Source: a virus. From it: a stretch of DNA of 64,000 nt. A program made the translations under genes and the position numbers. The stretch is from the UHGV virus genome UHGV-1373625; one strand, written 5' to 3'. The notes under the pieces were generated by a model. It was not told the origin of the DNA. It did no database searches and saw only the letters and a program-made list of their open reading frames with translations. Of this stretch, positions 9,453 through 53,753 are shown piece by piece (position 1 is the stretch's first letter; the number at the start of each line of letters is the position of its first letter).

Positions 9453-9523
9453 TGCGTACTTATGACATACTTAATGCTGGCCCTAAAAATAGATTTATGG
9501 CGAATGGTAAAATCGTAAGTAAT
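9452..9523 (+). mobile_element. intein C-terminal part (IntC, 24 aa) opening the PolA C-fragment
   Basis: MRTYDILNAGPKNRFMANGKIVSN followed by S resembles the DnaE IntC ...VYDIGVERDHNFALKNGFIASN followed by C. It has its own AAGGAGAG RBS at 9435-9442. Confidence 0.55.
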
Positions 9524-11368
9524 TCAGGTGCTCTTATTCAACCGCAAAATTTGACTAGACCTTCAACAAATAATATGAATATCCCCGAAGGTTCCAAGCC
9601 TTTGGATAATTATGATATCAGTGAAATGGATATCGAACTTGCAGCTAGCGGGAATTTAGATCTTATCCAGCAGTATTGGAAAGACCCTAAAGTCCTTGCC
9701 TCCGATTGCCTTCGCGCAATGATTCACGCTAGAAAAGGATACGATTTTATCTGTGCCGACTATAGTGGGATTGAAGCCCGAGCATTGGCATGTCTCGCTG
9801 GCGAAGAGTATGTTCTTCAAGGTTTTAGGGACGGCCTTGACCCATATAAAGTTGCAGCTACGACTATCTATGGGGTGAAATATGAAGATGTGGATAAGAA
9901 GCAGCGTCAAGTAGGTAAGACGGCTACGTTGGCTTGCTTCTCTGCGGATACAATGGTTTATACGAGCTATGGAATAAAAAAAATCGTCGACATAACTAAA
10001 GATGATTATGTATGGGATGGAGAAAACTGGTGTTTGACAGATGGAGCATATTGCCAAGGTATTAAAGAAATCGTTAATTTTTTGGGAGTAGAATCTACAC
10101 CTGATCAAAAATGGTTGATGGATGAAAATATTTGGATAGACTCCGATGCAGCTATTGAATTGTGTAAATGGCTAGGAGATGGGAAAGTTTATTCTAGCGA
10201 GCAATATCAAATATTCTCTAGTTGGGTTAGTTATCAAATCTCAAAAGTTCAAGATAAAATTATTTATAGTTTGAAGAAATACCCAGTAAAAGTAACTATA
10301 GCTGAAATGGGAATTGAAGTAATTCTTTCCGATTTTGACGAAGATGACTTTAATGTATCCTTTGTTGATTCTAAAAGTAGAAAAGGTGTTTATGTATACT
10401 TGGGTGAAAGCTTAAGGAACACGAGTCTTGAAGATAAAGTTAAATATGTATGCTCCATTATCGTCTTTTTAGCTACGATTTTTTCTAAGTATTCAACAGC
10501 TCAAAATTATCTGAATATTAAAGTGAGTGAAGCCGTTATTAAGGACTATAATAAAATAAATATGGCGATTTTAAAGTTTATCAAAAAAGATGATAGCGAT
10601 GAAATTATTCTTACTGGGAGCATTTTATCTAATAGAGATGGTTATACTAAAATAGAAAAAGTTTATGATCTTTTGAATTGTGGAGATAAAAGCAGGTTTA
10701 TGATACATACATCCTGCGGTCCACGCATTGTGCATAACTGTGGATATGGAGGTGGTTATGGCGCGTTCCTTCGCTTTGGGGCTGATAGAATGGGCATTGA
10801 TGAAGAGGAAGGAAAGAAGATTATTGCTGCATGGAGAGACGGGCACCCAATGACGGTTAAGCTTTGGCACAAACTCGTTGAAGCTGCTGTCATGGCTATG
10901 ACGAATAAGGGCGGAATTTATTCTTATCGTGGAGTATCATTCCAATACTATAAGAGATTCCTCCTTATGAAGCTCCCTAGTGGCAGGTTCCTCTTCTACT
11001 TCGAGCCTAAACTTGAAGACGTGGAGATGGCATGGTCTACGCCAGAAAAGCCAGCGTTCAAGAAGCTTGTTACGGCGATGACCTTGACGCCAGAAAAACA
11101 ATTTGTGAGAAGGCCGCTTAACCATCTCATACTTTCAGAAAATGTTACACAAGCTTTCTGTAGAGATCTGATGGTGAATGCGATGTTCAATCTCGAAGAA
11201 GCCAATTATCCGGTAGTGTTTCATGTTCATGATGAAATCATTGCGGAAGTTCCTAAAGGGTTTGGGTCTGTCGAGGAATTTGAAAATATCATGTGCAAGC
11301 TTCCTCAATGGGCAGAAGGTCTGCCAGTAAAGGCCGAAGGATGGAGGGGAGAATTTTATAGGAAATAA
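9452..11368 (+). CDS. DNA polymerase I (family A), C-terminal fragment: IntC, pol domain, and a second embedded intein
   Basis: Motif A is DFICADYSGIEARALA. Motif B, KQRQVGKTATLA...GYGGGYGAF, is interrupted by an intein. Motif C is VFHVHDEIIAEV. Confidence 0.75.
   Translation: MRTYDILNAGPKNRFMANGKIVSNSGALIQPQNLTRPSTNNMNIPEGSKPLDNYDISEMDIELAASGNLDLIQQYWKDPKVLASDCLRAMIHARKGYDFICADYSGIEARALACLAGEEYVLQGFRDGLDPYKVAATTIYGVKYEDVDKKQRQVGKTATLACFSADTMVYTSYGIKKIVDITKDDYVWDGENWCLTDGAYCQGIKEIVNFLGVESTPDQKWLMDENIWIDSDAAIELCKWLGDGKVYSSEQYQIFSSWVSYQISKVQDKIIYSLKKYPVKVTIAEMGIEVILSDFDEDDFNVSFVDSKSRKGVYVYLGESLRNTSLEDKVKYVCSIIVFLATIFSKYSTAQNYLNIKVSEAVIKDYNKINMAILKFIKKDDSDEIILTGSILSNRDGYTKIEKVYDLLNCGDKSRFMIHTSCGPRIVHNCGYGGGYGAFLRFGADRMGIDEEEGKKIIAAWRDGHPMTVKLWHKLVEAAVMAMTNKGGIYSYRGVSFQYYKRFLLMKLPSGRFLFYFEPKLEDVEMAWSTPEKPAFKKLVTAMTLTPEKQFVRRPLNHLILSENVTQAFCRDLMVNAMFNLEEANYPVVFHVHDEIIAEVPKGFGSVEEFENIMCKLPQWAEGLPVKAEGWRGEFYRK
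9935..10738 (+). mobile_element. contiguous intein (268 aa) inserted in PolA motif B, with a central putative endonuclease or linker domain
   Basis: It starts CFSADTMVYT (block A) and ends ...RIVHN followed by C. The flanking extein LA + CGYGGGYGAF restores motif B. A degenerate LGDG motif lies in the middle. Confidence 0.6.
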
Positions 11369-11457: not shown

Positions 11458-12579
11458 ATGTTTGAAGTAAAAGGATCAGTAAGTACAGCTAAGGTTTTCA
11501 CAGATTATGTGGAGCCGACCGCGTTATCTCAGATTATTGAATTATGTAATCAGGAGTTCACCGAAGGAAGTAAAATCCGTATTATGCCTGATGTACATGC
11601 TGGTGCTGGATGCGTTATTGGAACGACGATGACCATTGAAAATAAGAAAATCGTTCCTAATCTTGTCGGTGTTGATATCGGTTGTGGGCTACTGTCCTGT
11701 GAATTTACTTTGGGGGATAAGCTCAACAATAGCTTTTTTGAAGAAGTTGATCGAATTATTCGAAAGTATATTCCCGCAGGATTTAATATTCGTAACGACA
11801 AGCATGAATTGGTTAGCGCCATCAATTTGAATACGCTTGCATGTTGTAATGAAGTTAATATCGCTCGTGCGGAGCACAGTATTGGGACTTTGGGGGGAGG
11901 GAATCATTTTATTGAAATAGGGGAATCCGATAATTTCGATGGTACTTTTTCTTATTTCCTTACCGTACATTCTGGTTCTAGAAATATTGGAAAAGAAGTA
12001 GCTACTTATTATCAAAATGTCGCTATTAAGGAATGTCCGGGCACCCCCAAACATCTAGCGTATCTTTCAGGGGAGATGTTCGATGAATATATGTATGATA
12101 TGGAAATCATGAAATATTATGCCTCTTTGAATCGTGAGGCGATCATTAACGATATCACGCTACACATTGGGATTAAGAAAGACGATGTCTATGAAACCGT
12201 TCATAACTATATAGAACGTATTGACAATGATGTGTTCATGCTGCGCAAGGGAGCCGTTTCCGCTAAAAAAGAACAGGCTCTTATGATCCCTTTGAATATG
12301 AGAGACGGTATTATTTTTGGTTTTGGTAAAGGACTTGAAGACTGGAACTATTCCGCACCTCATGGAGCTGGACGTAGACTAAGCAGAGGTGAAGCCAAGC
12401 GCAGCCTTGATATGAATGATTTTAAAAATGAAATGGAAGGTATTTATTCTTCTTGCGTAAATATTTCTACTCTTGATGAAAGTCCTATGGCATACAAGGA
12501 TGGCTCAGAGATTCGTAATAATCTTCAATCGGTGGAAACCTTGTTTACTATTAAGCCAGTATATAACTTTAAAGCATAA
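11458..12579 (+). CDS. rtcB: RtcB-family RNA ligase
   Basis: Motifs MPDVHAGAG, GGGNHFIE, HSGSRNIG and APHGAGRR are present. This is a short, 373-aa RtcB form. Confidence 0.8.
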   Translation: MFEVKGSVSTAKVFTDYVEPTALSQIIELCNQEFTEGSKIRIMPDVHAGAGCVIGTTMTIENKKIVPNLVGVDIGCGLLSCEFTLGDKLNNSFFEEVDRIIRKYIPAGFNIRNDKHELVSAINLNTLACCNEVNIARAEHSIGTLGGGNHFIEIGESDNFDGTFSYFLTVHSGSRNIGKEVATYYQNVAIKECPGTPKHLAYLSGEMFDEYMYDMEIMKYYASLNREAIINDITLHIGIKKDDVYETVHNYIERIDNDVFMLRKGAVSAKKEQALMIPLNMRDGIIFGFGKGLEDWNYSAPHGAGRRLSRGEAKRSLDMNDFKNEMEGIYSSCVNISTLDESPMAYKDGSEIRNNLQSVETLFTIKPVYNFKA

Positions 12580-12592
12580 GAAGGAAAAACAA

Positions 12593-13225
12593 ATGACTAA
12601 TTTTCGTTCTATAGTTTTGGAAGAATCCGGTTTAGCTAGCGCTATTCTTGGAACAGGGCTTTCTTTTGGTGTTACGTCTGATTACGAGCTAAATGAAAAT
12701 GGAAGTCTAGTTTTGACTTATGGCAAAGACCTATCTAAGAAAACTCCTGATGAAATAGCGAATAGAATGAAAATCGTTATGGAAAAATTGGCTCCTCTTG
12801 AAAAAGGGAATAATAAATTTCTAGAATTTTTAGTTGTGCATATGGATATTAACGCCCCCCGTTATTGGTGGAGCCAATTTGACACATACAGAATTGGGGT
12901 GACGAGATTGTCCGAATCTACTATGCACACTCTCATGAAAGGCGAGCTGACTAGAGCTAACTTTTCTGAGGACACGCCTCAAAGAGCCATTGATACCGTA
13001 AATTCCTGTATTCGAGAAGGAGCTTTTGAAGCTGCTAAAGCATCTTTGCCAGAAGGTTTCATGCAAAGAAGAATAGTGTGCACGAATGCAAAAGCTATCA
13101 GGAATATGTACTCCCAAAGAAGAAATCATCGTTTGAAAGAGTGGAAGATTTTTTGGGAGAATGTGGAATGTGACGCGGAAAAATATTATACATTTTCCTA
13201 TGCGCTTAAAGGGCTATTTTATTAG
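12593..13225 (+). CDS. ThyX-family (flavin-dependent thymidylate synthase-like) protein with a divergent active-site motif
   Basis: INAPRYWWSQFDTYRIG aligns with the ThyX segment VKAPIFVARQWFRHRIA. CTNAKAIRNMYSQRRNHRLKEWKI aligns with [23 protein letters not shown]. The canonical RHR motif reads TYR. The ORF was listed from 12473, but the RBS and ATG are at 12593. Confidence 0.5.
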   Translation: MTNFRSIVLEESGLASAILGTGLSFGVTSDYELNENGSLVLTYGKDLSKKTPDEIANRMKIVMEKLAPLEKGNNKFLEFLVVHMDINAPRYWWSQFDTYRIGVTRLSESTMHTLMKGELTRANFSEDTPQRAIDTVNSCIREGAFEAAKASLPEGFMQRRIVCTNAKAIRNMYSQRRNHRLKEWKIFWENVECDAEKYYTFSYALKGLFY

Positions 13226-13244: not shown

Positions 13245-14000
13245 ATGTATGGATATGTTTATTGTACAACAAATTTAATAACGGGTTGTATGTATATAGG
13301 TAGACACGCATCTAGTGTATTCGATGAAAAGTATTTTGGCTCGGGAAAGATACTAAAACGAGCTATAAAAAAATATGGAGAGAATAATTTTTCTATAGAG
13401 ATACTTTGCGAAGCGGAGTCTTATGAAGATTTAGCTGAGAAAGAACGATATTATATAGCATTATCAGATGCGGTAAACCGTAAAGATTTTTATAATATAG
13501 GCAGGGGAGGAGAGGGGTTCCCTTCTGGAGAAAATCACCCAAATTATGGTAAAAAAGGCAAGGACGCTTTTGGGTGGGGGAAAGTGCATACTGATAAATT
13601 TAAAGAATATATGTCGAGAATACGAAAAGGTATGAAGTTTTCTTTTGACCATAAGCAAAAATTATCTCAAAAGAAATTAGGGGATGCTACATTAAATAAA
13701 GGAAGGCGTGTATCAGAAGATACAAAGGCCAAATTATCTCAAATAAACAAAGATGCTCAATTAAATAGGAAAATGGGTATTAAGCAAAATGGTAGAATAA
13801 GGACTTTTCATGAGTTCTTACACGGCTTTAAAGTTGCTATTTATTTTACAGATGGGTCGATTAAGACTTTTGATAGCATGAAAGCCTGTACGAGATACAC
13901 TTCATTGAAACATAGGGTGCGCCACATAAATACTATAAAAAGGATTATTAATGGAGAGACATTACCTCCAGAAGGGGTGAGAAAAATATGCTATATTTAA
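13245..14000 (+). CDS. GIY-YIG homing endonuclease with C-terminal NUMOD3-like repeats (free-standing HEG)
   Basis: The core is YGYVYCTTNLITGCMYIGRH (GIY-YIG). Repeated HP.YGKKGKD / KQKLSQKKLG / SEDTKAKLSQ motifs follow. Confidence 0.8.
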   Translation: MYGYVYCTTNLITGCMYIGRHASSVFDEKYFGSGKILKRAIKKYGENNFSIEILCEAESYEDLAEKERYYIALSDAVNRKDFYNIGRGGEGFPSGENHPNYGKKGKDAFGWGKVHTDKFKEYMSRIRKGMKFSFDHKQKLSQKKLGDATLNKGRRVSEDTKAKLSQINKDAQLNRKMGIKQNGRIRTFHEFLHGFKVAIYFTDGSIKTFDSMKACTRYTSLKHRVRHINTIKRIINGETLPPEGVRKICYI

Positions 14001-15180: not shown

Positions 15181-15205
15181 AAACTAAAGTTATATGGAGA
15201 TAAAT

Positions 15206-17389
15206 ATGGGAAAGAAGCCTAACATGATTATTAAGCGTGATGGTTCTAAAGTCCTTTTTGACCCCAAAAAGATTGAACTTGCTATTACTAAAGCTCTTAT
15301 TTCGGAAGGGGTAGCTTCTATTTTTACTGGAACTGCTCACGCTATTGCTGAATCTTTTGAAAGTGAAAATGAAACTCCAACGATTAAAGAAATTGAAGAA
15401 TATGTTTTTAAGAGCCTTTGCGAGGCCGGGCTTCCTCTTGTAGCAAAAGCCTACGAAGGTTACAGGAGTATTCGAGAATTTCAACGCTCTGATCAATTTA
15501 CCGATGAATCCATCCTTTCTATTGTAGCCGGAGGAACGGATGAGGACCTTCGAGATGAGAATAGTAATAAGAATGTCGCTACAGCGTCTACGCAACGAGA
15601 CATGATCGCTGGTGAGGCTTCAAAAGATATTGCGATGCGGCACATGCTCCCCCCTCATGTTGTACAGGCCCATAAAGACGGGCTTATTCACTTCCATGAT
15701 TTGGATTATGCTGTGCAGCGAATTTTTAACTGTTGTCTTGTTGATTTGCGTGGTCCATTTAAGGACGGAACCGTTATTAATAAGAAGATGATTGAGACTC
15801 CTAAGTCGTTCAGGACAGCCTGTACAGTCGCTACGCAGATCGTCCAACAGGTAGCGTGTGGACAATACGGTGGTCAGACTATTTCCCTCGCGCATCTCGC
15901 TCCGTATGTTAGGGTAAGCTACGAAAAGATTAAAAACCAAGTTAGAGAAGAACTTTTTGGGGATGATGTCCCTCTTGCGTCTCCCACTAAGCTTTGCGGG
16001 AATCGAGAAGTTGAGCATATTGCCAAGAAGCGGCTTCGTAAAGAAATTGAGGATGGTTTACAAACCATTCAGTATCAGGTAAACACTTTTTCGACAAGTA
16101 ATGGGCAAGCTCCGTTCCTTAGTATTTTCATGTATCTGAATGAAGATCCTGAATATATTGAAGAGACGGCAATGCTTATTGAAGAGATGATTAAGCAACG
16201 ATACATCGGGATGAAGAATGAAGCCGGAGTGTATGTTACCCCCGCGTTTCCTAAACTCCTGTATGTGCTTGATGAAAATAATGTTCCTAAAGATAGTAAG
16301 TATCGGTATCTGACAGATCTGGCGGTGAAATGTGTAGCTAGGCGTATGATGCCGGACTTCATTTCCGCAAAAAAGATGAAAGAAAATTATGAAGATGTTT
16401 TCCCCTGCATGGGATGCCGTTCTTTTCTTTCTCAATATAGAGATAAAGATGGCAAGCTGAAATGGTATAATAGATTCAATCAGGGTGTGGTAACTTTGAA
16501 CCTTGCGGATGCAGGACTTTCCGCAGACGGTAATATTGACGCTTTCTGGAAAATCCTTGACGAGCGCCTTGAATTGGTTCATGATGGCCTCATGTGCAAA
16601 CATAAGAGCCTTCTTGGTACGAAGGCCGAAAAGTCTCCTATCCATTGGCAGCATGGAGTTATCGCTCGCCTTAAAAAAGATGATGTAATTGACCCATATT
16701 TGAAAGATGGGTATTCAACTTTGTCTCTCGGATACATTGGGCTCCATGAATGCGTTCTTGCTCTTATCGGAGAATCACATACTACGGAACGTGGAGAAGA
16801 ACTTGCTGTACGTATTATGCGTAGATTGAGAAAAGCTTGCGACGATTGGCGTGCAGAATCTGGTCTTGGATTCAGCTTGTACGGGTCGCCTTCCGAATCT
16901 ACAACTTATCGTCTTGCACAGACAACTCAGAAGCGATTTGGAGTGGTTAAGGGAATTACTGACCGAGATTATTTGACAAATTCATACCATGTTGATGTAA
17001 CCGAAAAGATTAGTGCATTTGATAAACTTCGTTTTGAATCTCAATTTCAGAAAATTTCTTCCGGTGGCTGCATCAGCTATGTGGAAGTTCCGAATTTGGA
17101 GCAGAACCTCGAAGTGATTGATCAATTGGTTTCTTATATGTATGAAACTATTCAGTACGCTGAGATCAATACCAAATCGGACTATTGCGCTAAATGTGGA
17201 TTTCGAGGAGAAATCAAACTGAATAATAATCTTGATTGGGAATGTCCTCAGTGCCATACGGTAAATCGAGATGATCTTACTGTTTGCCGTAGAACTTGTG
17301 GCTACTTGGGCGATAATTTTTGGAACAAGGGACGAACCGAGGAAATCGGTGCCCGAGTATTGCATGTTGACAATGAAGACTTGAGCTGA
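15206..17389 (+). CDS. nrdD: anaerobic ribonucleoside-triphosphate reductase NrdD
   Basis: An N-terminal ATP-cone (MIIKRDGSKVLFDPKKI) is present. The C-terminal Zn ribbon is CAKCGF...CPQCH, and the glycyl-radical motif is RTCGYLG. The ORF opens at 15194; ATG 15206 follows GGAGA. Confidence 0.9.
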   Translation: MGKKPNMIIKRDGSKVLFDPKKIELAITKALISEGVASIFTGTAHAIAESFESENETPTIKEIEEYVFKSLCEAGLPLVAKAYEGYRSIREFQRSDQFTDESILSIVAGGTDEDLRDENSNKNVATASTQRDMIAGEASKDIAMRHMLPPHVVQAHKDGLIHFHDLDYAVQRIFNCCLVDLRGPFKDGTVINKKMIETPKSFRTACTVATQIVQQVACGQYGGQTISLAHLAPYVRVSYEKIKNQVREELFGDDVPLASPTKLCGNREVEHIAKKRLRKEIEDGLQTIQYQVNTFSTSNGQAPFLSIFMYLNEDPEYIEETAMLIEEMIKQRYIGMKNEAGVYVTPAFPKLLYVLDENNVPKDSKYRYLTDLAVKCVARRMMPDFISAKKMKENYEDVFPCMGCRSFLSQYRDKDGKLKWYNRFNQGVVTLNLADAGLSADGNIDAFWKILDERLELVHDGLMCKHKSLLGTKAEKSPIHWQHGVIARLKKDDVIDPYLKDGYSTLSLGYIGLHECVLALIGESHTTERGEELAVRIMRRLRKACDDWRAESGLGFSLYGSPSESTTYRLAQTTQKRFGVVKGITDRDYLTNSYHVDVTEKISAFDKLRFESQFQKISSGGCISYVEVPNLEQNLEVIDQLVSYMYETIQYAEINTKSDYCAKCGFRGEIKLNNNLDWECPQCHTVNRDDLTVCRRTCGYLGDNFWNKGRTEEIGARVLHVDNEDLS

Positions 17390-19399: not shown

Positions 19400-20728
19400 A
19401 TGGGTTTTTTAAATATTTTCAATAACTTCCGAAAAAAGGATTCAGAGTCTAAATCGAATATGGACGATTCGTTCTTAAATTCGATCTCTGTTTCCGATTC
19501 CGGTACTCCAGTAACTACGCGGACAGCGCTTGATTGCTCTGTCGTCTTGGCTTGTGTTTCCGTTATTTCCAATGGTATCGCTCAGGTTCCTTTTCGTTTG
19601 TATCAAAAAAAGGGAAATACTAGAAAGCCAGCGGAAAATCATCCATTGTATTGGCTTTTTGAGGAAGGCCCAAATCCATATCAAAGCCAATTTGAATTTC
19701 GGGAGACTCTCGGCTTGCATCTTGCGCTGACTGGAGAGGCTTTCGTTTGGCTTGTAAGAGTACGTGGAGAGATTAAGGAGATGTATCCTTTCCCTCCCGG
19801 CATGGTTAATGTTCAGATGGATGAATCTGATTCTCTTGGGCTTCGGTCAAAATATTTTGTAACGACCGAAAACGGGCGATATATTGAAATTCCTGAAAAG
19901 GATATGTGGCATTTGAAGTGGAGAGGGTACGATGTTATTCGTGGACTGTCCCCCGTCAAATTGGCAAAAAATGCTATTGGTCTTTCTTTGTCTTCGGATA
20001 AATATCTTGGAACGTCTTTAAAGAATGGAGTTAAACCTTCCGGCATTCTTACCGCAGTAAATGACTTGACAGAGGAACAGAGAAAGCGTATTCGTGAGAC
20101 GTGGGAGAGAGAATATAGCGGTTCAAGAAATGCCAATAAGACAATTATCTTGAGCAACGATTTTCGATATCAGCAGATGTCCATGACTAATCAGGACGCT
20201 CAGTTTGTTGAGAATCGTCAATTCCAAGTTGCGGATCTTTGTCGAAATTGGGGAGTGATGCCAATCATGGTCTTTGATTATATGAAGACCACAACGTACG
20301 CATCTTCCGAACAGCTTTTCTTGCAGCATAAAATTCATACGCTTGATCCGTGGTATCGGCGTATTGAAACAAGTGCCAATAAATTCTTGCTCACAGAAGA
20401 ACAGCGTAGAAAGGAAGGTCTGTATTTCAAGTTCATGGATGATGGATTGCTTCGTGGCGACGCGAAAAGCCGTGCCGAAGTTTATCGTACTGCCATCAAT
20501 TCCGGGTATATGACTCCTAACGAAGTTCGAGCCCTGTCTGAAATGAATCCCGTCAAGGGCGGTGATGAGCTATTTATGCAGGGAGCTATGAGGACTGTAG
20601 AATCCATTGTTAAGGAAGCGGACGTAATGGACGCACAGATTCCTCAATCAGGTAGTACAATTCCGAAAAAACTTAAAAACGGAGAGACGAACAATGGCGA
20701 TCAACGGAATGACGAAGACAATGAGTAA
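19400..20728 (+). CDS. portal protein (HK97 family)
   Basis: 442 aa. It is the first gene of the head module. The size and LSSDKYLG...NGVKPSGILT motifs fit HK97-like portals. Confidence 0.7.
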   Translation: MGFLNIFNNFRKKDSESKSNMDDSFLNSISVSDSGTPVTTRTALDCSVVLACVSVISNGIAQVPFRLYQKKGNTRKPAENHPLYWLFEEGPNPYQSQFEFRETLGLHLALTGEAFVWLVRVRGEIKEMYPFPPGMVNVQMDESDSLGLRSKYFVTTENGRYIEIPEKDMWHLKWRGYDVIRGLSPVKLAKNAIGLSLSSDKYLGTSLKNGVKPSGILTAVNDLTEEQRKRIRETWEREYSGSRNANKTIILSNDFRYQQMSMTNQDAQFVENRQFQVADLCRNWGVMPIMVFDYMKTTTYASSEQLFLQHKIHTLDPWYRRIETSANKFLLTEEQRRKEGLYFKFMDDGLLRGDAKSRAEVYRTAINSGYMTPNEVRALSEMNPVKGGDELFMQGAMRTVESIVKEADVMDAQIPQSGSTIPKKLKNGETNNGDQRNDEDNE

Positions 20729-48632: not shown

Positions 48633-49022
48633 ATGTTTAGATTAGGACTCGGTATCCTGTTAGGATGGCTTATCTTTGATGAAGAAGGGAAAAAGGCTTC
48701 GAATAAGGCTGGTAAATTTATCAAAGATAAATCCGGTGAAGCCATAGACTATGCGTCTAAGCATATTGATACGGATAAAGTCGCTGATTTCGTTAAAAAG
48801 CAAATTTCCCCGAAAGGCATTGCTGAAAATATCGCCCAAGACGTAGCTGAGGATGCCATCATAGATACGGTTGCAGAGAAAGCTGTGCTTGGTAATACCG
48901 CCGGAGGTATTCTAGCCGGAGAAACTTTGGCTACTGAACGAAATAACGAAAATTTGAATCAGATTGACCTTCTTCAACAGCGTGTAGATGCTTTGGCAAC
49001 AGGAAACGCGCCCATTATATAA
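48633..49022 (+). CDS. hypothetical protein with an N-terminal hydrophobic segment
   Basis: 129 aa. Confidence 0.35.
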   Translation: MFRLGLGILLGWLIFDEEGKKASNKAGKFIKDKSGEAIDYASKHIDTDKVADFVKKQISPKGIAENIAQDVAEDAIIDTVAEKAVLGNTAGGILAGETLATERNNENLNQIDLLQQRVDALATGNAPII

Positions 49023-49042
49023 CCACCACAAGGAAATGAATC

Positions 49043-49567
49043 ATGCACGATAGCAAATCCGCTGAAAAGATTGCAAAAGAAGAATACAAAGAAGAACTTG
49101 CATTCTTGGAAGAACTTGAACATGAAATTGGCGAGCATTGCGAGGCCGGAGTTCGGTCAATGCCTCATGTCGAAAACACTCGTGAGCTGCTTAAAGCTCA
49201 TAAAGAATTGTGCCATTATCTCATGTATAAGTGCGCCATTCATGAAATGTCGGAATATTCCGAAGTGTATCATGAGATTGAAGACATTATTGAAAATCCT
49301 CCCCACACTTGGTATCCCTATATGGATAAACCGGGCGGACACATGAATATCATTGAGATGGAAGTCGGAGAGATGATGCACGCCTATGAAGGAATGCGCG
49401 CCACGCCTCCCACGATGACCCATGCTCAGTTCGTACATGAGCTTAAACACGCCGCCGCCGCAATTTGCTACGCTCTGGAAGAAATGACCTGCTCTGACAA
49501 GGAATACCATAAAAAGCACCATTTCCATAAGCCGTATCCCGAAGAATACGGTTCTAAGGCGAAATAA
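49043..49567 (+). CDS. His/Glu/Met-rich hypothetical protein
   Basis: 174 aa with many H, E and M residues, including HEM-type clusters, and a C-terminal HHFHKPYPEEYG. Confidence 0.4.
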   Translation: MHDSKSAEKIAKEEYKEELAFLEELEHEIGEHCEAGVRSMPHVENTRELLKAHKELCHYLMYKCAIHEMSEYSEVYHEIEDIIENPPHTWYPYMDKPGGHMNIIEMEVGEMMHAYEGMRATPPTMTHAQFVHELKHAAAAICYALEEMTCSDKEYHKKHHFHKPYPEEYGSKAK

Positions 49568-49569
49568 TC

Positions 49570-49779
49570 ATGAACATCGAATCTGATCGCAGGGTAGATA
49601 CAGGACAATCGGAATCGAAGACTTTCGGATGGATACCTTGTGCATTATGCAAGGCGTGGATTCCGATTGTCAAAGACGGAGTACACGAACCTCCGAAACA
49701 CGGTATTTGCCCGTATCGGAAGCCCTCTAAATGCAAAACGGAACCTAGTTTTGGTTGTCGTTGGGGCTTTACTGCTTAA
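49570..49779 (+). CDS. small Cys-rich hypothetical protein
   Basis: 69 aa. Confidence 0.3.
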   Translation: MNIESDRRVDTGQSESKTFGWIPCALCKAWIPIVKDGVHEPPKHGICPYRKPSKCKTEPSFGCRWGFTA

Positions 49780-49816
49780 TCAGAAATTCTCCCTACCTCC
49801 TTCCCATCCCTCCCTT

Positions 49817-49848
49817 AAAGGCGTCTATCCGGACGCCTTTTTCTTTTC
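49817..49848 (+). terminator. rho-independent terminator
   Basis: AAAGGCGTC tatccg GACGCCTTT, then TTTTCTTTTCTT. Confidence 0.6.
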
Positions 49849-49877
49849 TTGACAAAAATATAGAATGAAGATATACT
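49849..49877 (+). promoter_or_regulatory. promoter TTGACA-N17-TATACT upstream of the terminase gene
   Basis: The -35 TTGACA is at 49849-49854. The spacer is 17 nt. The -10 TATACT is at 49872-49877. Confidence 0.55.
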
Positions 49878-49927
49878 TCAAAGATATATTAAAAATATCA
49901 TTTTATCAGATAAGGAGAGGAGTTTCA

Positions 49928-52063
49928 ATGGCTAATGTAAAACCCATAACGACTAAACAATTCAATCAAAACAAAAAGCATATCACCGACATCCATTGGT
50001 ACGCCGACAATGTTCTTAACGGAAATATTCAGGTCTGTAAATACATTAGAGCATTGTGCAAAAACTTTAAAGATGATCTTGCTAATAAAGACCTTGATTT
50101 TTATTTCTCGGAAGAATCGGCTATTCGCGTAATTTGTTTTATCGAAAATATGGTGCATGTCAAGGGCGTTCTTACTGGAAAAAGATTAAAGCTTGAGCCT
50201 TGGCAGAAATTCTTCGTTGGAAACATCTTTGGGTGGCTGGATAAGAAAAACAATCTCCGCAGGTACAGGGAGGCCGCCCTTATCGTCCCCCGAAAAGCTG
50301 GCAAGGCTTTAGCTGTAAGCACTCCAATCCCTACTCCCGAGGGTTGGGTCACGATGAATGATTTAAAGCCCGGAGATGCCGTTTATGGGCCAAATTCGGA
50401 TATACGAAGAGTAGTAGCCGCAACGGAAGTGATGTACGGAAGGCCGTGCTATGAAATTTCTTTCAGTGATGGTTCCGCTATTACTGCCGACGCGGAGCAT
50501 CTTTGGAAAATCGACGGTAAGAATATCGTAACCTCCGAAAGTCTGCATCAAATCTTGTCTCATAATGGCAGAAAGCCCAAAGTGTGGGTAGCTCCGAATA
50601 TAAAAAGGCATGATGGCGAGACGGTGCCTGTGGTAAGATTTATTACGGATTGTAAACCTGTGGAAAGCGTTCCGGTGAAGTGTATACAGGTTGACAATGA
50701 AGATGGAATGTATCTTTGCGGGAAAACGTATATTCCGACTCACAATAGCAGCCTTGCAGCGGCTATTGGTCACTATATGCTTGTTGGTGAAAAAGAAAAA
50801 GGTTCGGAAGTATATTGTGGTGCGACCACAGAAGTTCAAGCTTTTGTCCTGTTCAACATCGCTCGGGATATGATTGTTGCCAATAAAGCATTTGAAGAAG
50901 CATTCGGACTGACTTATACTAAAGAATCGATTCATGCACAATCAACGCTTTCTACGTTCAAACCTATTATCGGAAGCCCGAAGGATGGTAGTAACCCTCA
51001 GTGCGCTATTGTTGACGAGTATCACGAGCATCCTTCCGACGCGCTATATGACTCGTTGAAGCTCGGTATGGGCGCAAGACAGCATCCTCTCTTGCTTGTT
51101 ACTACCACCGCAGGGACGAATATTAAAGGCCCGTGCTATCGTTATGTGGAACAAGGCAGGAAGGTTGTGTTGGGGAAAGCAAAGAACGACAGATTATTTT
51201 ACATGGAGTTTACCATCGACGATACGGATAAATGGGAAGATTTTTCATGTTGGATTAAGGCCAGCCCGAACTTTGGAGTTTCCGTATCCGAAGAGTTCCT
51301 GCGCGAGCAATACGAAATAGCCAAATCATCACAGTACAAGCGTTCATCCATTCTTACCAAAATGCTGAATGTTTGGAACAATGAATCCGTGGGATGGATT
51401 GACTTTCCTAAATGGCTTAATTGTACTGACAGAAATCTAAAGATGGAAGACTTTGAAGGCGAGAAATGCTGGATTGGCATTGACCTAGCCTCTAAGGTCG
51501 ACTTAACAGCAATGGTCGCCGTCTTTAAGCGCGATGGTAAGTTCTATGTTTTCGGAAAATACTATCTTCCTTCCGATACTGTAGATAGACCGGAGAACGA
51601 CCATTATCGGGGCTGGCGAGATGAAGGCTGGCTGACCGTAACGCAAGGGGCTCGAACAGACTATCATGCGCTGGAGGAGGATCTGCAAAATTGGGCTGAT
51701 AAATATGCGATTCAGGAAGTAGCATATGACCCTAGAGAAGCCGAATATCTTATGCAGAATATCCGGGAATGGGCGGCATTTGAATGTATTGAATTCACAC
51801 AGTCGTCCGCTACTTTCTCCGAGCCGATGAAAGAGTTTGAAGCTGCGTATCTTAATGGGGAGCTTTTCCACCAGAATGACCCTATCCTCAACTTCGCTGC
51901 TGGTAATGTAGTCCTGAAATCCACAACGAACAAACTTGTTTACATGACCAAAACGGCGAATGAAAATAAAATCGACCCGATGGTCGCTATGATTATGGCA
52001 ATCGCTAGAGCAATGGAAGATAAAGAAGAAGAGGCGTCAGATCCGTTTATTATGTTCCTTTAG
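49928..52063 (+). CDS. terminase large subunit with a mini-intein inserted in the Walker A P-loop
   Basis: The extein PRKAGK + SSLAAAIGHYML reconstitutes the TerL Walker A (PRxxGKS). The ATPase and nuclease domains lie downstream. ATG 49928 follows GGAGAGGAG. The ORF opens at 49865. Confidence 0.8.
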   Translation: MANVKPITTKQFNQNKKHITDIHWYADNVLNGNIQVCKYIRALCKNFKDDLANKDLDFYFSEESAIRVICFIENMVHVKGVLTGKRLKLEPWQKFFVGNIFGWLDKKNNLRRYREAALIVPRKAGKALAVSTPIPTPEGWVTMNDLKPGDAVYGPNSDIRRVVAATEVMYGRPCYEISFSDGSAITADAEHLWKIDGKNIVTSESLHQILSHNGRKPKVWVAPNIKRHDGETVPVVRFITDCKPVESVPVKCIQVDNEDGMYLCGKTYIPTHNSSLAAAIGHYMLVGEKEKGSEVYCGATTEVQAFVLFNIARDMIVANKAFEEAFGLTYTKESIHAQSTLSTFKPIIGSPKDGSNPQCAIVDEYHEHPSDALYDSLKLGMGARQHPLLLVTTTAGTNIKGPCYRYVEQGRKVVLGKAKNDRLFYMEFTIDDTDKWEDFSCWIKASPNFGVSVSEEFLREQYEIAKSSQYKRSSILTKMLNVWNNESVGWIDFPKWLNCTDRNLKMEDFEGEKCWIGIDLASKVDLTAMVAVFKRDGKFYVFGKYYLPSDTVDRPENDHYRGWRDEGWLTVTQGARTDYHALEEDLQNWADKYAIQEVAYDPREAEYLMQNIREWAAFECIEFTQSSATFSEPMKEFEAAYLNGELFHQNDPILNFAAGNVVLKSTTNKLVYMTKTANENKIDPMVAMIMAIARAMEDKEEEASDPFIMFL
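50306..50746 (+). mobile_element. mini-intein (147 aa, Ala1 variant) in TerL
   Basis: ALAVSTPIPTPEGWVTMNDLKPGD is block A with Ala at position 1. SAITADAEHLWKI is block B (TxxH). It ends YIPTHN followed by S. Confidence 0.6.
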
Positions 52064-52078
52064 CGTGCGTTAACACAT

Positions 52079-52154
52079 ACAATAATACCCAATTAATCTA
52101 CGAATCTCTTTCCATTGATTCCGCGATTAATTGGGTATTATTGTATTCTAGGGA
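52079..52154. terminator. perfect 20-bp inverted repeat acting as a convergent (bidirectional) terminator
   Basis: ACAATAATACCCAATTAATC (52079-52098) pairs with GATTAATTGGGTATTATTGT (52135-52154) across a 36-nt loop. It lies between the plus-strand TerL gene and the minus-strand block. Confidence 0.6.
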
Positions 52155-52157
52155 ACC

Positions 52158-52523
52158 CTAAAAAAGAAATCCTTTTCCCCCGAAATTAAACTCCGGCCTA
52201 ACATATCTTTCAATGACAAGCTCCGGAGGGGAAACCTTTTTAATTAAATACATAATCATGTCTATATATTCGTTTCGAGTAACCCAACAAATATCGAACT
52301 CACCGAATATAGGATTTTCATATTGATCAAGAAATCCAGAAGTTTTCAGAAGAGACATAAGCTTAGGTTTATCTTCTTCCCTATTGAGAATCCCTCTTTC
52401 AAAATTAAATTGTTCAAGAACTTTTTCGTATCCTTCTTTGAATTGTTCTACATCGGAAACTCTATAAAAGAATGCCCTAGGCTTCCCTTCCGAGTCTTCG
52501 ATTCTGATTTTGATAATTTCCAT
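52158..52523 (-). CDS. hypothetical protein
   Basis: 121 aa. Confidence 0.35.
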   Translation of the reverse strand: MEIIKIRIEDSEGKPRAFFYRVSDVEQFKEGYEKVLEQFNFERGILNREEDKPKLMSLLKTSGFLDQYENPIFGEFDICWVTRNEYIDMIMYLIKKVSPPELVIERYVRPEFNFGGKGFLF

Positions 52524-52527
52524 ATGT

Positions 52528-52755
52528 TCACTCCTTATTAATCGACTTTAGAAATAATGTATGGATGCACCTATCAATTATAAAACAAACGCTAATGATA
52601 GGCAGTAAAAAGAAGAAAAAGGTTGTACTAAAATCTTTTGATCTTAGTACATCTGAAAATAGAAATAATCCAATCGCAAAGATTATGGAACTTATTGTCA
52701 GGTCATAGTATTTAAGAACCTGTAACCCCTTTAAGAAGATTTCTGAATACTTCAT
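52528..52755 (-). CDS. small membrane protein
   Basis: 75 aa with two hydrophobic helices. Confidence 0.3.
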   Translation of the reverse strand: MKYSEIFLKGLQVLKYYDLTISSIIFAIGLFLFSDVLRSKDFSTTFFFFLLPIISVCFIIDRCIHTLFLKSINKE

Positions 52756-53011
52756 CTATACCATTTTCTCCTTTGGAGACATCGAAAATAATATCATGGG
52801 TTTCACCACCTTTTAAAAAGAGAGTTATAGTATTACCTCTCTTTTTAGCCCCGATAATACTTTCGATTTCAAAAAATTCAGTAGCGGGTGATGTTAAGGT
52901 ATCTTTAAAAACGAAATAATTCTTTTTTGATGATGGAACGGGAGGAGGCGGAGGCGCACAGCGTTTTGGCACATCCCACCATATTTGTCTATCAGGTTTA
53001 CATTCATCCAT
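52712..53011 (-). CDS. hypothetical protein
   Basis: 99 aa. Confidence 0.3.
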   Translation of the reverse strand: MDECKPDRQIWWDVPKRCAPPPPPVPSSKKNYFVFKDTLTSPATEFFEIESIIGAKKRGNTITLFLKGGETHDIIFDVSKGENGIDEVFRNLLKGVTGS

Positions 53012-53142: not shown

Positions 53143-53385
53143 TCACTTGCTAGGAGTTTCAATAACAGAAGTATGAGAAGCGCGGAGAATATTAAAATGG
53201 ACACCATCACGATACTCCTTCGATGGAAATACAAAGCGTTCTGTTAGATTCCTCACTTTTGTTTCTACTGATATATCCAATACACAATCGTCGTCAAGGG
53301 CATCACTTATAAGAATGATACGATCCAAATCAATAGATATGGTTCTTTCAAGCTCTGGTCCATATTTAAAATTAAAAAGCTTCAT
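53143..53385 (-). CDS. hypothetical protein
   Basis: 80 aa. The overlapping ORF 53040-53234 is an alternative. Confidence 0.25.
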   Translation of the reverse strand: MKLFNFKYGPELERTISIDLDRIILISDALDDDCVLDISVETKVRNLTERFVFPSKEYRDGVHFNILRASHTSVIETPSK

Positions 53386-53753
53386 GCTGATCCCTTCCCT
53401 TTCCGATAGTCGGAGGTTATTTTTGAGTGGCAGGATTTACATAACGCCATAAGGTTATTTTCGTCAAGTATTTTTCCGCCCTCGTTAATAGGAACGATAT
53501 GGTGGACTTCATTAGCTGCGTTAGGAAACGGAGTGGTTTTCTCGCATTCCTCGCAGAAAGGGTGCTTTCGCAGATAACGCTCACGAACTTTCTTCCACCT
53601 TGAATCGTACCCTCTTTCCGCCGGAGTTCCACGCTTCATGTCATATCGTTTGTCTGACGATATTCTGTGCTTGGCGCAATCTTCGCAGTACCCCGAAGGG
53701 TGATCCGTTGGCTTTTTACAATGTTTGCATGGTTTTTTTGGTCTAGGGGGCAT
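53382..53753 (-). CDS. HNH endonuclease
   Basis: CKHCKK...CEDC, then VHHIVPINEGG...NLMALCKSCH (the HNH motif). Confidence 0.75.
   Translation of the reverse strand: MPPRPKKPCKHCKKPTDHPSGYCEDCAKHRISSDKRYDMKRGTPAERGYDSRWKKVRERYLRKHPFCEECEKTTPFPNAANEVHHIVPINEGGKILDENNLMALCKSCHSKITSDYRKGKGSA

What the first reader, a model, noticed from the sequence alone, without database searches (positions are those of the whole stretch)
50306..50746. Ala1 mini-intein in the terminase large-subunit P-loop
The Walker A PRKAGK-S is split between GK and S by 147 aa. The insert begins ALAVSTPIPTPEGWV...DLKPGD, which is block A with Ala instead of Cys. It has a TxxH block B and ends THN followed by S. Ala1 inteins splice by a non-canonical route: the +1 nucleophile attacks directly. 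Finding one in TerL of this phage is notable. Packaging would depend on splicing efficiency.
Basis: partly seen in the sequence, partly recalled or inferred. Interest (0 to 1): 0.6.

Follow-up and report, generated by a model that had tools for sequence, protein, structure and literature searches.

The report
Class 3 mini-intein in phage terminase
A 147-residue self-splicing protein element (a class 3 mini-intein) interrupts the ATP-binding loop of this uncultivated phage's DNA-packaging motor; it is real and very probably active, but it is a new member of a well-described kind.

Summary
Bases 50306-50746 encode 147 residues (ALAVST...PTHN) inserted exactly between PRKAGK and S of the Walker A motif of the only terminase large subunit (TerL) in the window. 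Intein-free TerL homologues read PRKxGK[S/T] straight through.

The insert matches solved class 3 DnaB mini-inteins over its full length (E=3.5e-33). Its model is a HINT fold (TM 0.90-0.94 to 6RIY and 6BS8).

It carries the whole class 3 signature: Ala1, DxxH (not TxxH), Trp B:12, Cys F:4, Thr G:5, His-Asn, Ser+1, plus the essential Cys48. The block F Cys126 should start splicing.

Eleven population alleles all keep the intein intact under purifying selection (dN/dS 0.058).

The kind is known. HEN-bearing class 3 inteins occupy the same TerL site in cultured phages (E. coli ELT3, Klebsiella RaK2, Synechococcus B23, Stenotrophomonas SOVA965), and the same family sits in the actinobacterial DnaB P-loop.

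Verdict: new member of a known kind, moderate-low interest.

In passing, the phage's DNA polymerase A carries two more inteins, one of them a 115-residue naturally split intein.

The parts
49928..52063 (+). TerL precursor gene: 711 aa, 80.9 kDa. The longer ORF from 49865 is probably not used.
   Evidence: Pfam TerL_ATPase + TerL_nuclease. PHROG phrog_9 terminase large subunit, E=5e-155. RBS and promoter. It is the only TerL in the window.
49928..50305 (+). N-extein, ending in the first part of Walker A (...IVPRKAGK).
   Evidence: Aligns with the N-terminal 123 positions of the intein-free TerL HMM. Alignment to homologues.
50306..50746 (+). Class 3 mini-intein, 147 aa, 16.2 kDa (ALAVSTPIPTPEGW...GKTYIPTHN).
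   Evidence: PDB phmmer E=3.5e-33 to 6RIX/6RIY/6BS8. AF2 pLDDT 89.4. Foldseek TM 0.90-0.94 to class 3 DnaB inteins. No endonuclease domain in Pfam.
50306..50308 (+). Ala1 (GCT): non-nucleophilic first residue. The scissile bond is Lys(-1)-Ala1.
   Evidence: Position 1 is Ala, Gly or Pro in all 23 family members compared.
50447..50449 (+). Cys48: non-catalytic but essential Cys, and the disulfide partner of the catalytic Cys in Msm DnaBi1.
   Evidence: Invariant column in alignment A2. Role taken from PMC6195587.
50489..50506 (+). Block B core D62-A-E-H65-L-W67: DxxH, His B:10, Trp B:12.
   Evidence: H65 and W67 invariant. Same residue numbers as Msm DnaBi1.
50507..50641 (+). Linker (about residues 68-112): a short conserved helix (SESLHQILSH), then a low-confidence loop. 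This is where relatives carry a LAGLIDADG endonuclease.
   Evidence: Pairwise alignments to HEN-bearing P0074/P0047/P0045 place a 165-200 residue gap here. pLDDT is 64-71 for residues 91-110.
50681..50683 (+). Cys126 (TGT), block F position 4: the predicted initiating nucleophile.
   Evidence: Aligned with Cys118 of Msm DnaBi1 (svpvkCiqvd / svpvrCvevd). Invariant in all 23 family members.
50738..50746 (+). Thr145 (G:5), His146 (G:6), Asn147 (G:7): the end of the intein.
   Evidence: THN is invariant in the family.
50747..50749 (+). Ser+1 (AGC): second nucleophile, and after splicing the Walker A Ser (GKS).
   Evidence: Intein-free homologues have S/T here.
50747..52060 (+). C-extein: the rest of the ATPase domain plus the nuclease domain. 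The spliced product is 564 aa, 64.7 kDa, with junction ...PRKAGKSSLAAAIGHY...
   Evidence: Pfam. HMM positions 120-550. Masses.
49817..49877 (+). Upstream terminator (49817-49840) and sigma-70-like promoter (49849-49877) that make terL its own transcription unit.
   Evidence: (consensus scan only) and sequence.

Best explanation
The insert is a class 3 mini-intein. It is a HINT-fold self-splicing domain that has lost its homing endonuclease. It lies at the 'classic' P-loop site (GK|S) of the phage's single terminase large subunit.

Inferred mechanism, by homology with Msm DnaBi1, Mle DnaB and MP-Be DnaB:
1. The 80.9-kDa precursor is made with a broken Walker A loop and cannot bind ATP or assemble the motor.
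2. The thiol of Cys126 (block F:4) attacks the Lys(-1)-Ala1 peptide bond. His65, Asp62 and the Trp67 core position it. This gives a block-F branched thioester.
3. The N-extein is passed to the hydroxyl of Ser+1, giving the block-G branched ester.
4. Asn147 cyclises, helped by His146, and releases the 16.2-kDa intein.
5. An O-to-N shift makes the native Lys-Ser bond and restores PRKAGKS in a 64.7-kDa TerL.

Shown here: the position, the homology, the fold, the full catalytic residue set, fixation in the population and purifying selection. Inferred: the chemistry and the need for splicing.

The element cannot home because it has no endonuclease, so it persists by vertical descent. Only precise deletion would remove it without killing TerL.
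For: Position:
- Exact in-frame insertion in Walker A, against many intein-free homologues.

Homology and fold:
- Full-length homology to solved class 3 inteins, E=3.5e-33.
- Confident HINT model whose best structural matches are the three class 3 DnaB intein entries, TMt 0.90-0.94.

Catalytic residues:
- A1, C48, D62, H65, W67, C126, T145, H146, N147 and S+1 are all present and conserved across 23 family members.
- Mutagenesis in homologues: Cys F:4 to Ala, His B:10 to Ala, Trp B:12 to Ala and Ser+1 to Ala each block splicing. Any change of Cys48 also blocks it (PMC5222942; PMC6195587).

Relatives at the same TerL site:
- 16 other TerL homologues carry related inteins at the same site. Twelve have LAGLIDADG endonucleases.
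- The window's copy is closest (59.6% over the splicing blocks) to HEN-bearing ones.
- The gap falls where they hold the endonuclease.

Population evidence:
- All 11 alleles (window, L001, L006-L014; up to 7.4% nucleotide divergence) keep an intact intein.
- The intein holds 50 polymorphic nucleotides, with no change at a catalytic residue.
- Window versus L001: intein dN/dS = 0.058, binomial p = 3e-7 against neutrality.
- This is the only TerL in the window.
Against: - No experiment: splicing and the order of intermediates are inferred from homologues that share only 45-55% identity.
- Curated intein profiles do not reach threshold. Pfam Hint_2 scores 14 bits against a 28.4 cut-off, and no NCBIfam intein-splicing model matched; the only hit, NF038136 (an intein-containing radical SAM family), scored 16.8 bits against a 700-bit cut-off. 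Recognition therefore rests on PDB homologues and the fold.
- Position 5 is Ser where most relatives have Asp (ALALDT), although Mch DnaB-1 has Tyr there.
- Intein dN/dS (0.058) is about seven times that of the extein (0.008), so constraint is weaker. This is expected for the linker.
- The AF2 model had no exteins, so active-site geometry at the junctions was not examined.
Confidence: 0.85

Rival explanations
1. Class 2 (KlbA-type) intein. [quoted passage not shown]
For: Ala1 and the canonical C-terminal His-Asn are shared with class 2 inteins.
Against: - +1 is Ser, not Cys. In class 3 homologues Ser+1 could not initiate splicing (PMC5222942).
- Block F:4 is Cys, not the Asp of classes 1 and 2. 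That Cys occupies the position of the conserved F-block Asp (PMC6195587).
- The full WCT triplet is present.
- The nearest solved relatives are all class 3.
Confidence: 0.03
2. Decayed, non-splicing intein relic. TerL would be a pseudogene, or packaging would be done by another terminase.
For: It has lost its endonuclease. Curated intein HMMs barely see it. Inactive class 3 intein relics exist (Arthrobacter Arth_1007, PMC3196547, listed).
Against: - Every catalytic residue is intact.
- Eleven diverged alleles have no frameshift or stop, and dN/dS is 0.058.
- The extein is under very strong constraint (0.008).
- No second TerL is in the window.
- terL has its own promoter and a strong RBS.
Confidence: 0.03
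3. A normal structural subdomain of this TerL lineage, not an intein.
For: The insert alone hits PHROG 'terminase large subunit' profiles.
Against: - Those PHROG profiles are 702-1330 positions long, so they are built from intein-containing TerLs.
- TerLs at 54-56% identity lack the insert (P0044, P0046).
- The same domain sits in DnaB and other P-loop proteins.
- The fold is HINT.
Confidence: 0.005
4. Same class 3 chemistry, but the intein is kept because it acts as a conditional switch. A reversible Cys48-Cys126 disulfide or zinc binding would gate splicing, and so gate DNA packaging, according to the redox or metal state of the host.
For: - Cys48 and Cys126 are both conserved.
- In Msm DnaBi1 these two form a splicing-blocking disulfide under H2O2 (PMC6195587).
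- Zinc reversibly inhibits that intein (PMC7360933, title and abstract listing).
- The phage encodes an anaerobic ribonucleotide reductase (NrdD), so its host is probably an anaerobe in which oxidation would be a meaningful signal.
Against: - Cys48 is needed for splicing itself in Msm DnaBi1, so its conservation needs no regulatory explanation.
- A selfish element trapped in an essential site explains retention without any benefit.
- There are no data on this protein.
Confidence: 0.12

Closest known systems
Mycobacterial DnaB P-loop class 3 mini-inteins (Msm DnaBi1, PDB 6BS8; Mch DnaB-1, PDB 6RIX/6RIY; Mle DnaB)
   Same: - Same size class (139-145 aa against 147 aa) and no endonuclease.
- Same relative site in a Walker A loop (GK|S).
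- Ala1, Cys48, Asp62, His65 and Trp67 at identical residue numbers; Cys F:4, THN end and Ser+1.
- 45-55% identity and TM 0.90-0.94.
   Different: - The host protein is a phage TerL, not a bacterial replicative helicase.
- The genome is low in GC (intein 46%, window 41%, against 64-72% in actinobacterial loci).
- Ser5 replaces the usual Asp, and the linker is unrelated in sequence.
HEN-bearing class 3 inteins at the TerL Walker A GK|S/T site. Cultured phages: E. coli ELT3, ECD7 and Makalu (Krischvirus), Klebsiella RaK2 and K64-1, Synechococcus B3 and B23, Stenotrophomonas SOVA965. Metagenomic TerLs: P0041, P0045, P0047-49, P0054, P0056, P0068, P0074, P0078, P0113, P0122.
   Same: - Same host protein and same insertion point.
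- Same WCT signature and +1 Ser/Thr.
- 44-60% identity over the splicing blocks.
- RaK2 and K64-1 terminase Hint plus LAGLIDADG domains were already noted in PMC5259590.
   Different: They are 330-429 aa with a LAGLIDADG endonuclease and so can home. The window's copy has a gap of about 165-200 residues there.
Other TerL mini-inteins at this site (P0040, P0042, P0043; 140-145 aa)
   Same: Same site, same class 3 residues, no endonuclease.
   Different: They start with Gly1, are only 46-48% identical, and group with the HEN-bearing Gly1 intein P0041. Endonuclease loss was therefore independent.
Mycobacteriophage TerL inteins (Kelley et al. 2016, PMC5050341): site TerL1-a/b in the P-loop; class 3 TerL1-c, -d and -e
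   Same: [quoted passage not shown]
- Class 3 TerL1-c/e inteins are 41-55% identical to DnaB-b inteins.
- TerL inteins were shown to splice.
   Different: - The class 3 ones described there sit at other TerL sites: a helix and Walker B.
- I could not establish the class of TerL1-a from the text.
- Those are actinophages. In the 2025 actinophage survey, class 3 inteins measured 225-359 aa, so none was a mini-intein of this size.
Class 2 inteins (Mja KlbA type)
   Same: Ala at position 1; C-terminal His-Asn.
   Different: Class 2 uses Cys+1 to attack the N-terminal junction directly and lacks the block F Cys (mechanism description in PMC5222942). Here +1 is Ser and F:4 is Cys.

Membership tests
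Class 3 intein | No Cys/Ser/Thr nucleophile at intein position 1 | tested here: met
   Ala1, GCT at 50306-50308.
Class 3 intein | Trp at block B position 12, two residues after His B:10 | tested here: met
   H65-L-W67. Both invariant in A3 and aligned to His65/Trp67 of Msm DnaBi1.
Class 3 intein | Cys at block F position 4 (initiating nucleophile) | tested here: met
   C126 in SVPVKCIQVD, aligned to Cys118 of 6BS8 and the equivalent of 6RIX. Invariant in 23 relatives.
Class 3 intein | Thr at block G position 5, then His G:6 and Asn G:7 | tested here: met
   T145-H146-N147. Invariant.
Class 3 intein | Ser or Thr (rarely Cys) at +1 | tested here: met
   Ser, AGC at 50747-50749. S/T in all 16 TerL relatives.
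Class 3 intein | HINT fold | tested here: met
   AF2 pLDDT 89.4, pTM 0.84. Foldseek hits are inteins only; the top seven rows are chains of the three class 3 DnaB intein entries.
Class 3 intein | Splicing through a block-F branched thioester intermediate; blocked by Cys F:4 to Ala | not testable with these tools
   Needs expression and mutagenesis. Shown only for homologues (PMC2807308, PMC5222942, PMC6195587).
Class 2 intein | Cys+1 that attacks the N-terminal junction directly; no block F Cys nucleophile | tested here: not met
   +1 is Ser and F:4 is Cys.
Class 1 intein | Cys/Ser/Thr at position 1 and TxxH in block B | tested here: not met
   Ala1. Block B is DAEH, and there is no TxxH anywhere in the 147 residues.
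Mini-intein (no homing endonuclease) | Splicing blocks only; no LAGLIDADG, HNH or GIY-YIG domain between blocks B and F | tested here: met
   147 aa. Pfam finds no endonuclease domain. The gap against HEN-bearing relatives falls in the linker. The antisense ORF 50363-50941 has no Pfam hit.
Terminase large subunit (Pfam TerL_ATPase PF03354 + TerL_nuclease PF20441) | Both domains present above curated cut-offs; Walker A restored after in-silico splicing | tested here: met
   68.4 and 157.7 bits. The spliced junction PRKAGKSS aligns with PRKxGKS/T of intein-free TerLs.

The most novel reading that the evidence does not exclude
The mini-intein is more than a trapped parasite. It would be a redox- or zinc-gated post-translational switch on DNA packaging. 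A reversible Cys48-Cys126 disulfide, as in Msm DnaBi1, would hold TerL inactive when the (probably anaerobic) host is oxidatively stressed, delaying packaging until conditions recover.
Probability: 0.1. Interest if true: 0.6.

Novelty: new member of a known kind. Interest (0 to 1): 0.3.

Why it matters
For annotation: gene callers and curated intein profiles miss this element. Pfam and NCBIfam are below threshold, and PHROGs have absorbed it into 'terminase' profiles. TerL lengths, alignments and TerL-based phage phylogenies are distorted unless it is removed.

For biology: it adds a low-GC, uncultivated, probably anaerobe-infecting siphophage to the hosts of one class 3 intein family. That family sits at the same Walker A position in actinobacterial DnaB, in T4-like, jumbo and cyanophage TerLs, and in other P-loop proteins. 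This supports the idea that nucleotide-binding loops are the route by which these inteins switch host proteins, and that phages carry them.

For tools: it is a compact class 3 intein with a native Ser+1 junction, from a phage whose genome carries three inteins (class 3, class 1-like and naturally split). That could be useful raw material for orthogonal protein ligation.

None of this changes current understanding of inteins.

Tried and rejected
- Curated intein profiles: Pfam Hint_2 only at E=0.067 and 14 bits (cut-off 28.4). NCBIfam gave no intein splicing model, only a 16.8-bit hit to an intein-containing radical SAM family.
- TerL against one genome per species (genome contigs): no relative, so no host clue.
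- Megablast of 49000-53000 against cultured phages: no match. The capsid is only 31-35% identical to any cultured phage in the rows listed. The host remains unknown.
- GC content as a sign of recent transfer: intein 45.8%, extein 43.6%, no signal.
- Tori & Perler 2011 (PMC3133030) is not held.
- For the polymerase inteins: PDB phmmer and Pfam gave nothing. hhalign against the class 3 profile was insignificant, though colinear. Single-sequence AF2 of the fused split intein was too poor to use (pLDDT 54.5). Their status rests on exact presence/absence polymorphism instead.
- Considered and rejected: the antisense ORF 50363-50941 as a hidden endonuclease. It has no family hit and junk-like composition.
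Full report
**1. What is in the sequence.**
The region lies in ORF 49865..52063 on the + strand. Pfam finds TerL_nuclease (residues 441-718, 157.7 bits) and an interrupted TerL_ATPase (68.4 bits, two stretches). PHROGs give 'terminase large subunit' at E=5e-155.

The likely true start is ATG 49928:
- AAGGAGAGGAG lies 6-7 nt upstream.
- A TTGACA-17-TATACT promoter lies at 49849-49877, and a hairpin terminator at 49817-49840.
- Gene calls in relatives also start there.

That gives a 711-aa precursor.

The finding's coordinates are exact. GCT (Ala) at 50306 follows ...CCC CGA AAA GCT GGC AAG (PRKAGK). AAT (Asn) ends at 50746, and AGC (Ser) follows. The insert is 147 residues.

**2. It is an insertion, not a lineage-specific subdomain.**
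Among 914 TerL homologues, dozens of 540-570-aa proteins read PRKxGK|S/T without interruption. These include the nearest ones (P0044 at 56% identity, P0046 at 54%). An HMM built from them matches the window's TerL on both sides and skips exactly the insert. No second TerL exists in the window.

**3. It is an intein of the class 3 kind.**

Homology and fold:
- phmmer against all PDB chains matches the insert end to end to three 'replicative DNA helicase' entries, 6RIX, 6RIY and 6BS8, at E=3.5e-33 to 2.1e-32.
- These are the Mycobacterium chimaera DnaB-1 and M. smegmatis DnaBi1 class 3 mini-inteins (descriptions).
- An AlphaFold2 model built on a 45-sequence alignment is confident (pLDDT 89.4, pTM 0.84). 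It is almost all beta with one helix.
- Foldseek against the PDB returns HINT-fold proteins only: almost all inteins, plus a few bacterial intein-like and hedgehog autoprocessing domains. The three class 3 entries come first (TM normalised to target 0.90-0.94).

Residues:
- Ala1
- Cys48
- Asp62-x-x-His65-x-Trp67
- Cys126 in SVPVKCIQVD
- Thr145-His146-Asn147
- Ser+1

The Trp(B:12)-Cys(F:4)-Thr(G:5) triplet, the missing position-1 nucleophile and Ser/Thr+1 are the published definition of class 3 (PMC2807308; PMC5222942; PMC5050341). Up to Trp67 the residue numbers are identical to Msm DnaBi1. In that intein:
- Cys118 (F:4) is the initiating nucleophile.
- Asp62 replaces the class 1 Thr of TxxH.
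- Trp67 packs the hydrophobic core.
- Thr137 contacts His65.
- Cys48 cannot be changed without losing splicing (PMC6195587).

No TxxH exists in the insert.

**4. Mechanism.**
By homology, the chain of events is:
1. Cys126 attacks the Lys(-1)-Ala1 bond, giving the block F branched thioester.
2. Ser+1 takes over the N-extein, giving the block G branched ester.
3. Asn147 cyclises, aided by His146.
4. An O-to-N shift completes the ligation.

This restores PRKAGKSS in a 64.7-kDa TerL and releases a 16.2-kDa intein (masses).

It needs Cys+1 and no block F Cys. In class 3 homologues Ser+1 could not initiate (PMC5222942).

As in DnaBi1, the +1 Ser is also the Walker A Ser that will coordinate Mg2+ in the mature enzyme (PMC6195587). 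Because the P-loop is cut in two, the precursor should be unable to bind ATP or join the pentameric motor. This was argued for mycobacteriophage TerL inteins (PMC5050341). It is an inference here.

**5. Evidence that it is functional.**
IMG/VR holds nine contigs, and Logan one, with a TerL at least 99% identical in protein but up to 7.4% different in DNA.
- All 11 alleles carry the intein with no stop or frameshift.
- The intein has 50 polymorphic nucleotide positions, only a handful of conservative amino-acid changes, and none at a catalytic residue.
- Window against L001: dS=0.176 and dN=0.010, so dN/dS=0.058 in the intein, against 0.008 in the extein. The excess of synonymous change has binomial p=3e-7.

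The element is fixed and under purifying selection at the protein level. That is what is expected if packaging depends on splicing.

**6. Origin.**
Sixteen other TerL homologues have inteins at the same site.
- Twelve are 334-429 aa; most carry Pfam LAGLIDADG_3 and/or Hom_end domains.
- Three are minis of 140-145 aa that begin with Gly.

The window's intein is closest, over the splicing blocks, to HEN-bearing ones (59.6% to P0074, P0047 and P0045). It is only 46-48% identical to the Gly1 minis, which group with the HEN-bearing Gly1 intein P0041. Endonuclease loss therefore happened more than once in TerL.

Pairwise alignment puts a 165-200-residue gap in the linker, after a short helix (TSESLHQIL against TTREIxxTL) that all relatives share.

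Outside TerL, the best database hits of the intein alone are fragments of DnaB (PF03796) and FtsK-like (PF01580) proteins. In one genome per species, all 25 relatives found are Actinomycetota. Twenty-three of them sit visibly in the DnaB Walker A (AARPxxGK|A...THN|STLxLDF), as minis and HEN-bearing forms of 142-512 aa, in DNA of 64-72% GC. L038's junction was not resolved, and L018 lies in a different P-loop protein. That scan seeds on exact peptides and so is biased.

The window's copy has the GC content of its host gene (45.8% against 43.6%). It is therefore old in this lineage.

**7. Comparison with what is known.**
- Inteins at the TerL P-loop were described for mycobacteriophages. [quoted passage not shown]
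- Class 3 TerL inteins at other sites were shown to be 41-55% identical to DnaB-b inteins (PMC5050341).
- A tblastn of the intein against 50,697 phage records finds 468 records.
- I read four of them. E. coli phage ELT3, Klebsiella RaK2, Synechococcus B23 and Stenotrophomonas SOVA965 each have a 330-353-aa class 3 intein (Ala1 or Pro1, HxW, C at F:4, THN) precisely at GK|T/S of TerL.
- The Hint plus LAGLIDADG domains of the RaK2 and K64-1 terminases were already noticed (PMC5259590).
- Class 3 mini-inteins of 139-145 aa are known and have been shown to splice (PMC5222942).

What is particular here is the combination: a class 3 mini-intein, at the TerL Walker A site, in a low-GC uncultivated siphophage. 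The 2025 actinophage survey found class 3 inteins only between 225 and 359 aa. This is a new member of a known kind, not a new variant of the mechanism.

**8. Context.**
The window is a siphovirus-like phage genome:
- SNF2 helicase
- DUF2800 nuclease
- SSB
- family A polymerase
- RtcB
- ThyX-like protein
- a SegE-like GIY-YIG endonuclease
- NrdD
- portal
- prohead protease
- HK97-type capsid
- tape measure
- GpJ-like tip

It has no tRNA and no near relative among cultured phages. The anaerobic reductase suggests an anaerobic host.

**9. Seen in passing: two more inteins in the DNA polymerase.**

The split site:
- ORF 8091-9452 ends ...YHGASTGRF|CLSEGSMV...LKLWQGEKP*.
- The next ORF starts at 9452 (TAATG overlap, with AAGGAGAG upstream) with MRTYDILNAGPKNRFMANGKIVSN|SGALIQPQNL.

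The internal site:
- Inside the second ORF, ...GKTATLA|CFSADTMV...(268 aa)...PRIVHN|CGYGGGYGA interrupts motif B.

Evidence that both are inteins:
- Removing the 91 + 24 residues and the 268 residues gives a 708-aa protein. It aligns end to end at 99.0% with the contiguous, uninterrupted P0172 (708 aa).
- Relatives show every combination of filled and empty sites.
- The stop/start overlap is kept in five other contigs with up to 33 nucleotide differences across the intein. The split is therefore real, not an assembly error.

At 115 residues, with a 24-residue C-part, this split intein is shorter than the 33-54-residue C-parts listed by Dassa et al. (PMC2677866). No profile or PDB sequence match supports it, and the single-sequence model failed. 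Its activity is untested.

**10. Verdict.**
It is wrong about the splicing class and about TxxH.
- Confidence that this is a class 3 intein by sequence and fold is about 0.95. Confidence that it splices by the class 3 route in vivo is about 0.85.
- Interest for the finding itself is modest (0.3).
- The split polymerase intein is the more unusual object in this window.

Noticed in passing
window 9177-9449 (Int-N, end of ORF 8091-9452) and 9452-9523 (Int-C, start of ORF 9452-11368), + strand: A naturally split intein divides the family A DNA polymerase at ...STGRF | SGALIQPQNL. Int-N is 91 aa (CLSEGSMV...), followed by a TAATG stop/start overlap with an RBS. Int-C is only 24 aa (MRTYDILNAGPKNRFMANGKIVSN), with Ser+1. 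Intein-free contiguous alleles exist at 99% identity (P0172, P0173). The split is conserved in five other IMG/VR contigs. At 115 aa in total it would be unusually small. There is no profile or PDB match, and activity is untested.
   Followed up: partly
window 9935-10738, + strand (inside ORF 9452-11368): A third intein, class 1-like: 268 aa, Cys1 (CFSADTMV...), ending ...PRIVHN|C. It interrupts polymerase motif B (GKTATLA|CGYGGG). Close relatives show the site filled or empty, or filled with inserts of other sizes (P0159-P0173, L040-L044). Its middle part has no recognisable endonuclease family.
   Followed up: partly
window 13245-14000, + strand: A free-standing SegE-like GIY-YIG/NUMOD3 homing endonuclease gene lies just downstream of a ThyX-like gene (12473-13225). 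It is another selfish element in the replication module.
   Followed up: no
window 19400-20728 (portal) versus 49928-52063 (terL): terL lies about 30 kb downstream of the portal/capsid module, after the tail genes, as its own promoter-terminator unit. No recognisable small terminase sits next to it. The upstream ORF 49043-49567 only hits an unknown-function PHROG.
   Followed up: no
window 53382-53753 (- strand); L001 14012-15187: An HNH endonuclease gene lies 1.3 kb downstream of terL on the opposite strand. The related Logan contig L001 carries a TnpB/IS605 OrfB gene beside it that the window lacks, so this is an insertion polymorphism between close phages.
   Followed up: no
window 50129-50553: Between the window and L001, this stretch (end of the N-extein plus the first 83 intein codons) has 2 differences in 425 nt, against about 5% elsewhere in terL. 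Other alleles (L011, L013) differ at 32-34 intein positions. This may be a recombination patch or mosaicism within terL.
   Followed up: no
window 11458-12579 and 15194-17389, + strand: The phage encodes an RtcB RNA ligase, whose first 130 residues have no Pfam match, and a full anaerobic ribonucleotide reductase NrdD with an ATP-cone. The latter hints at an anaerobic host.
   Followed up: no
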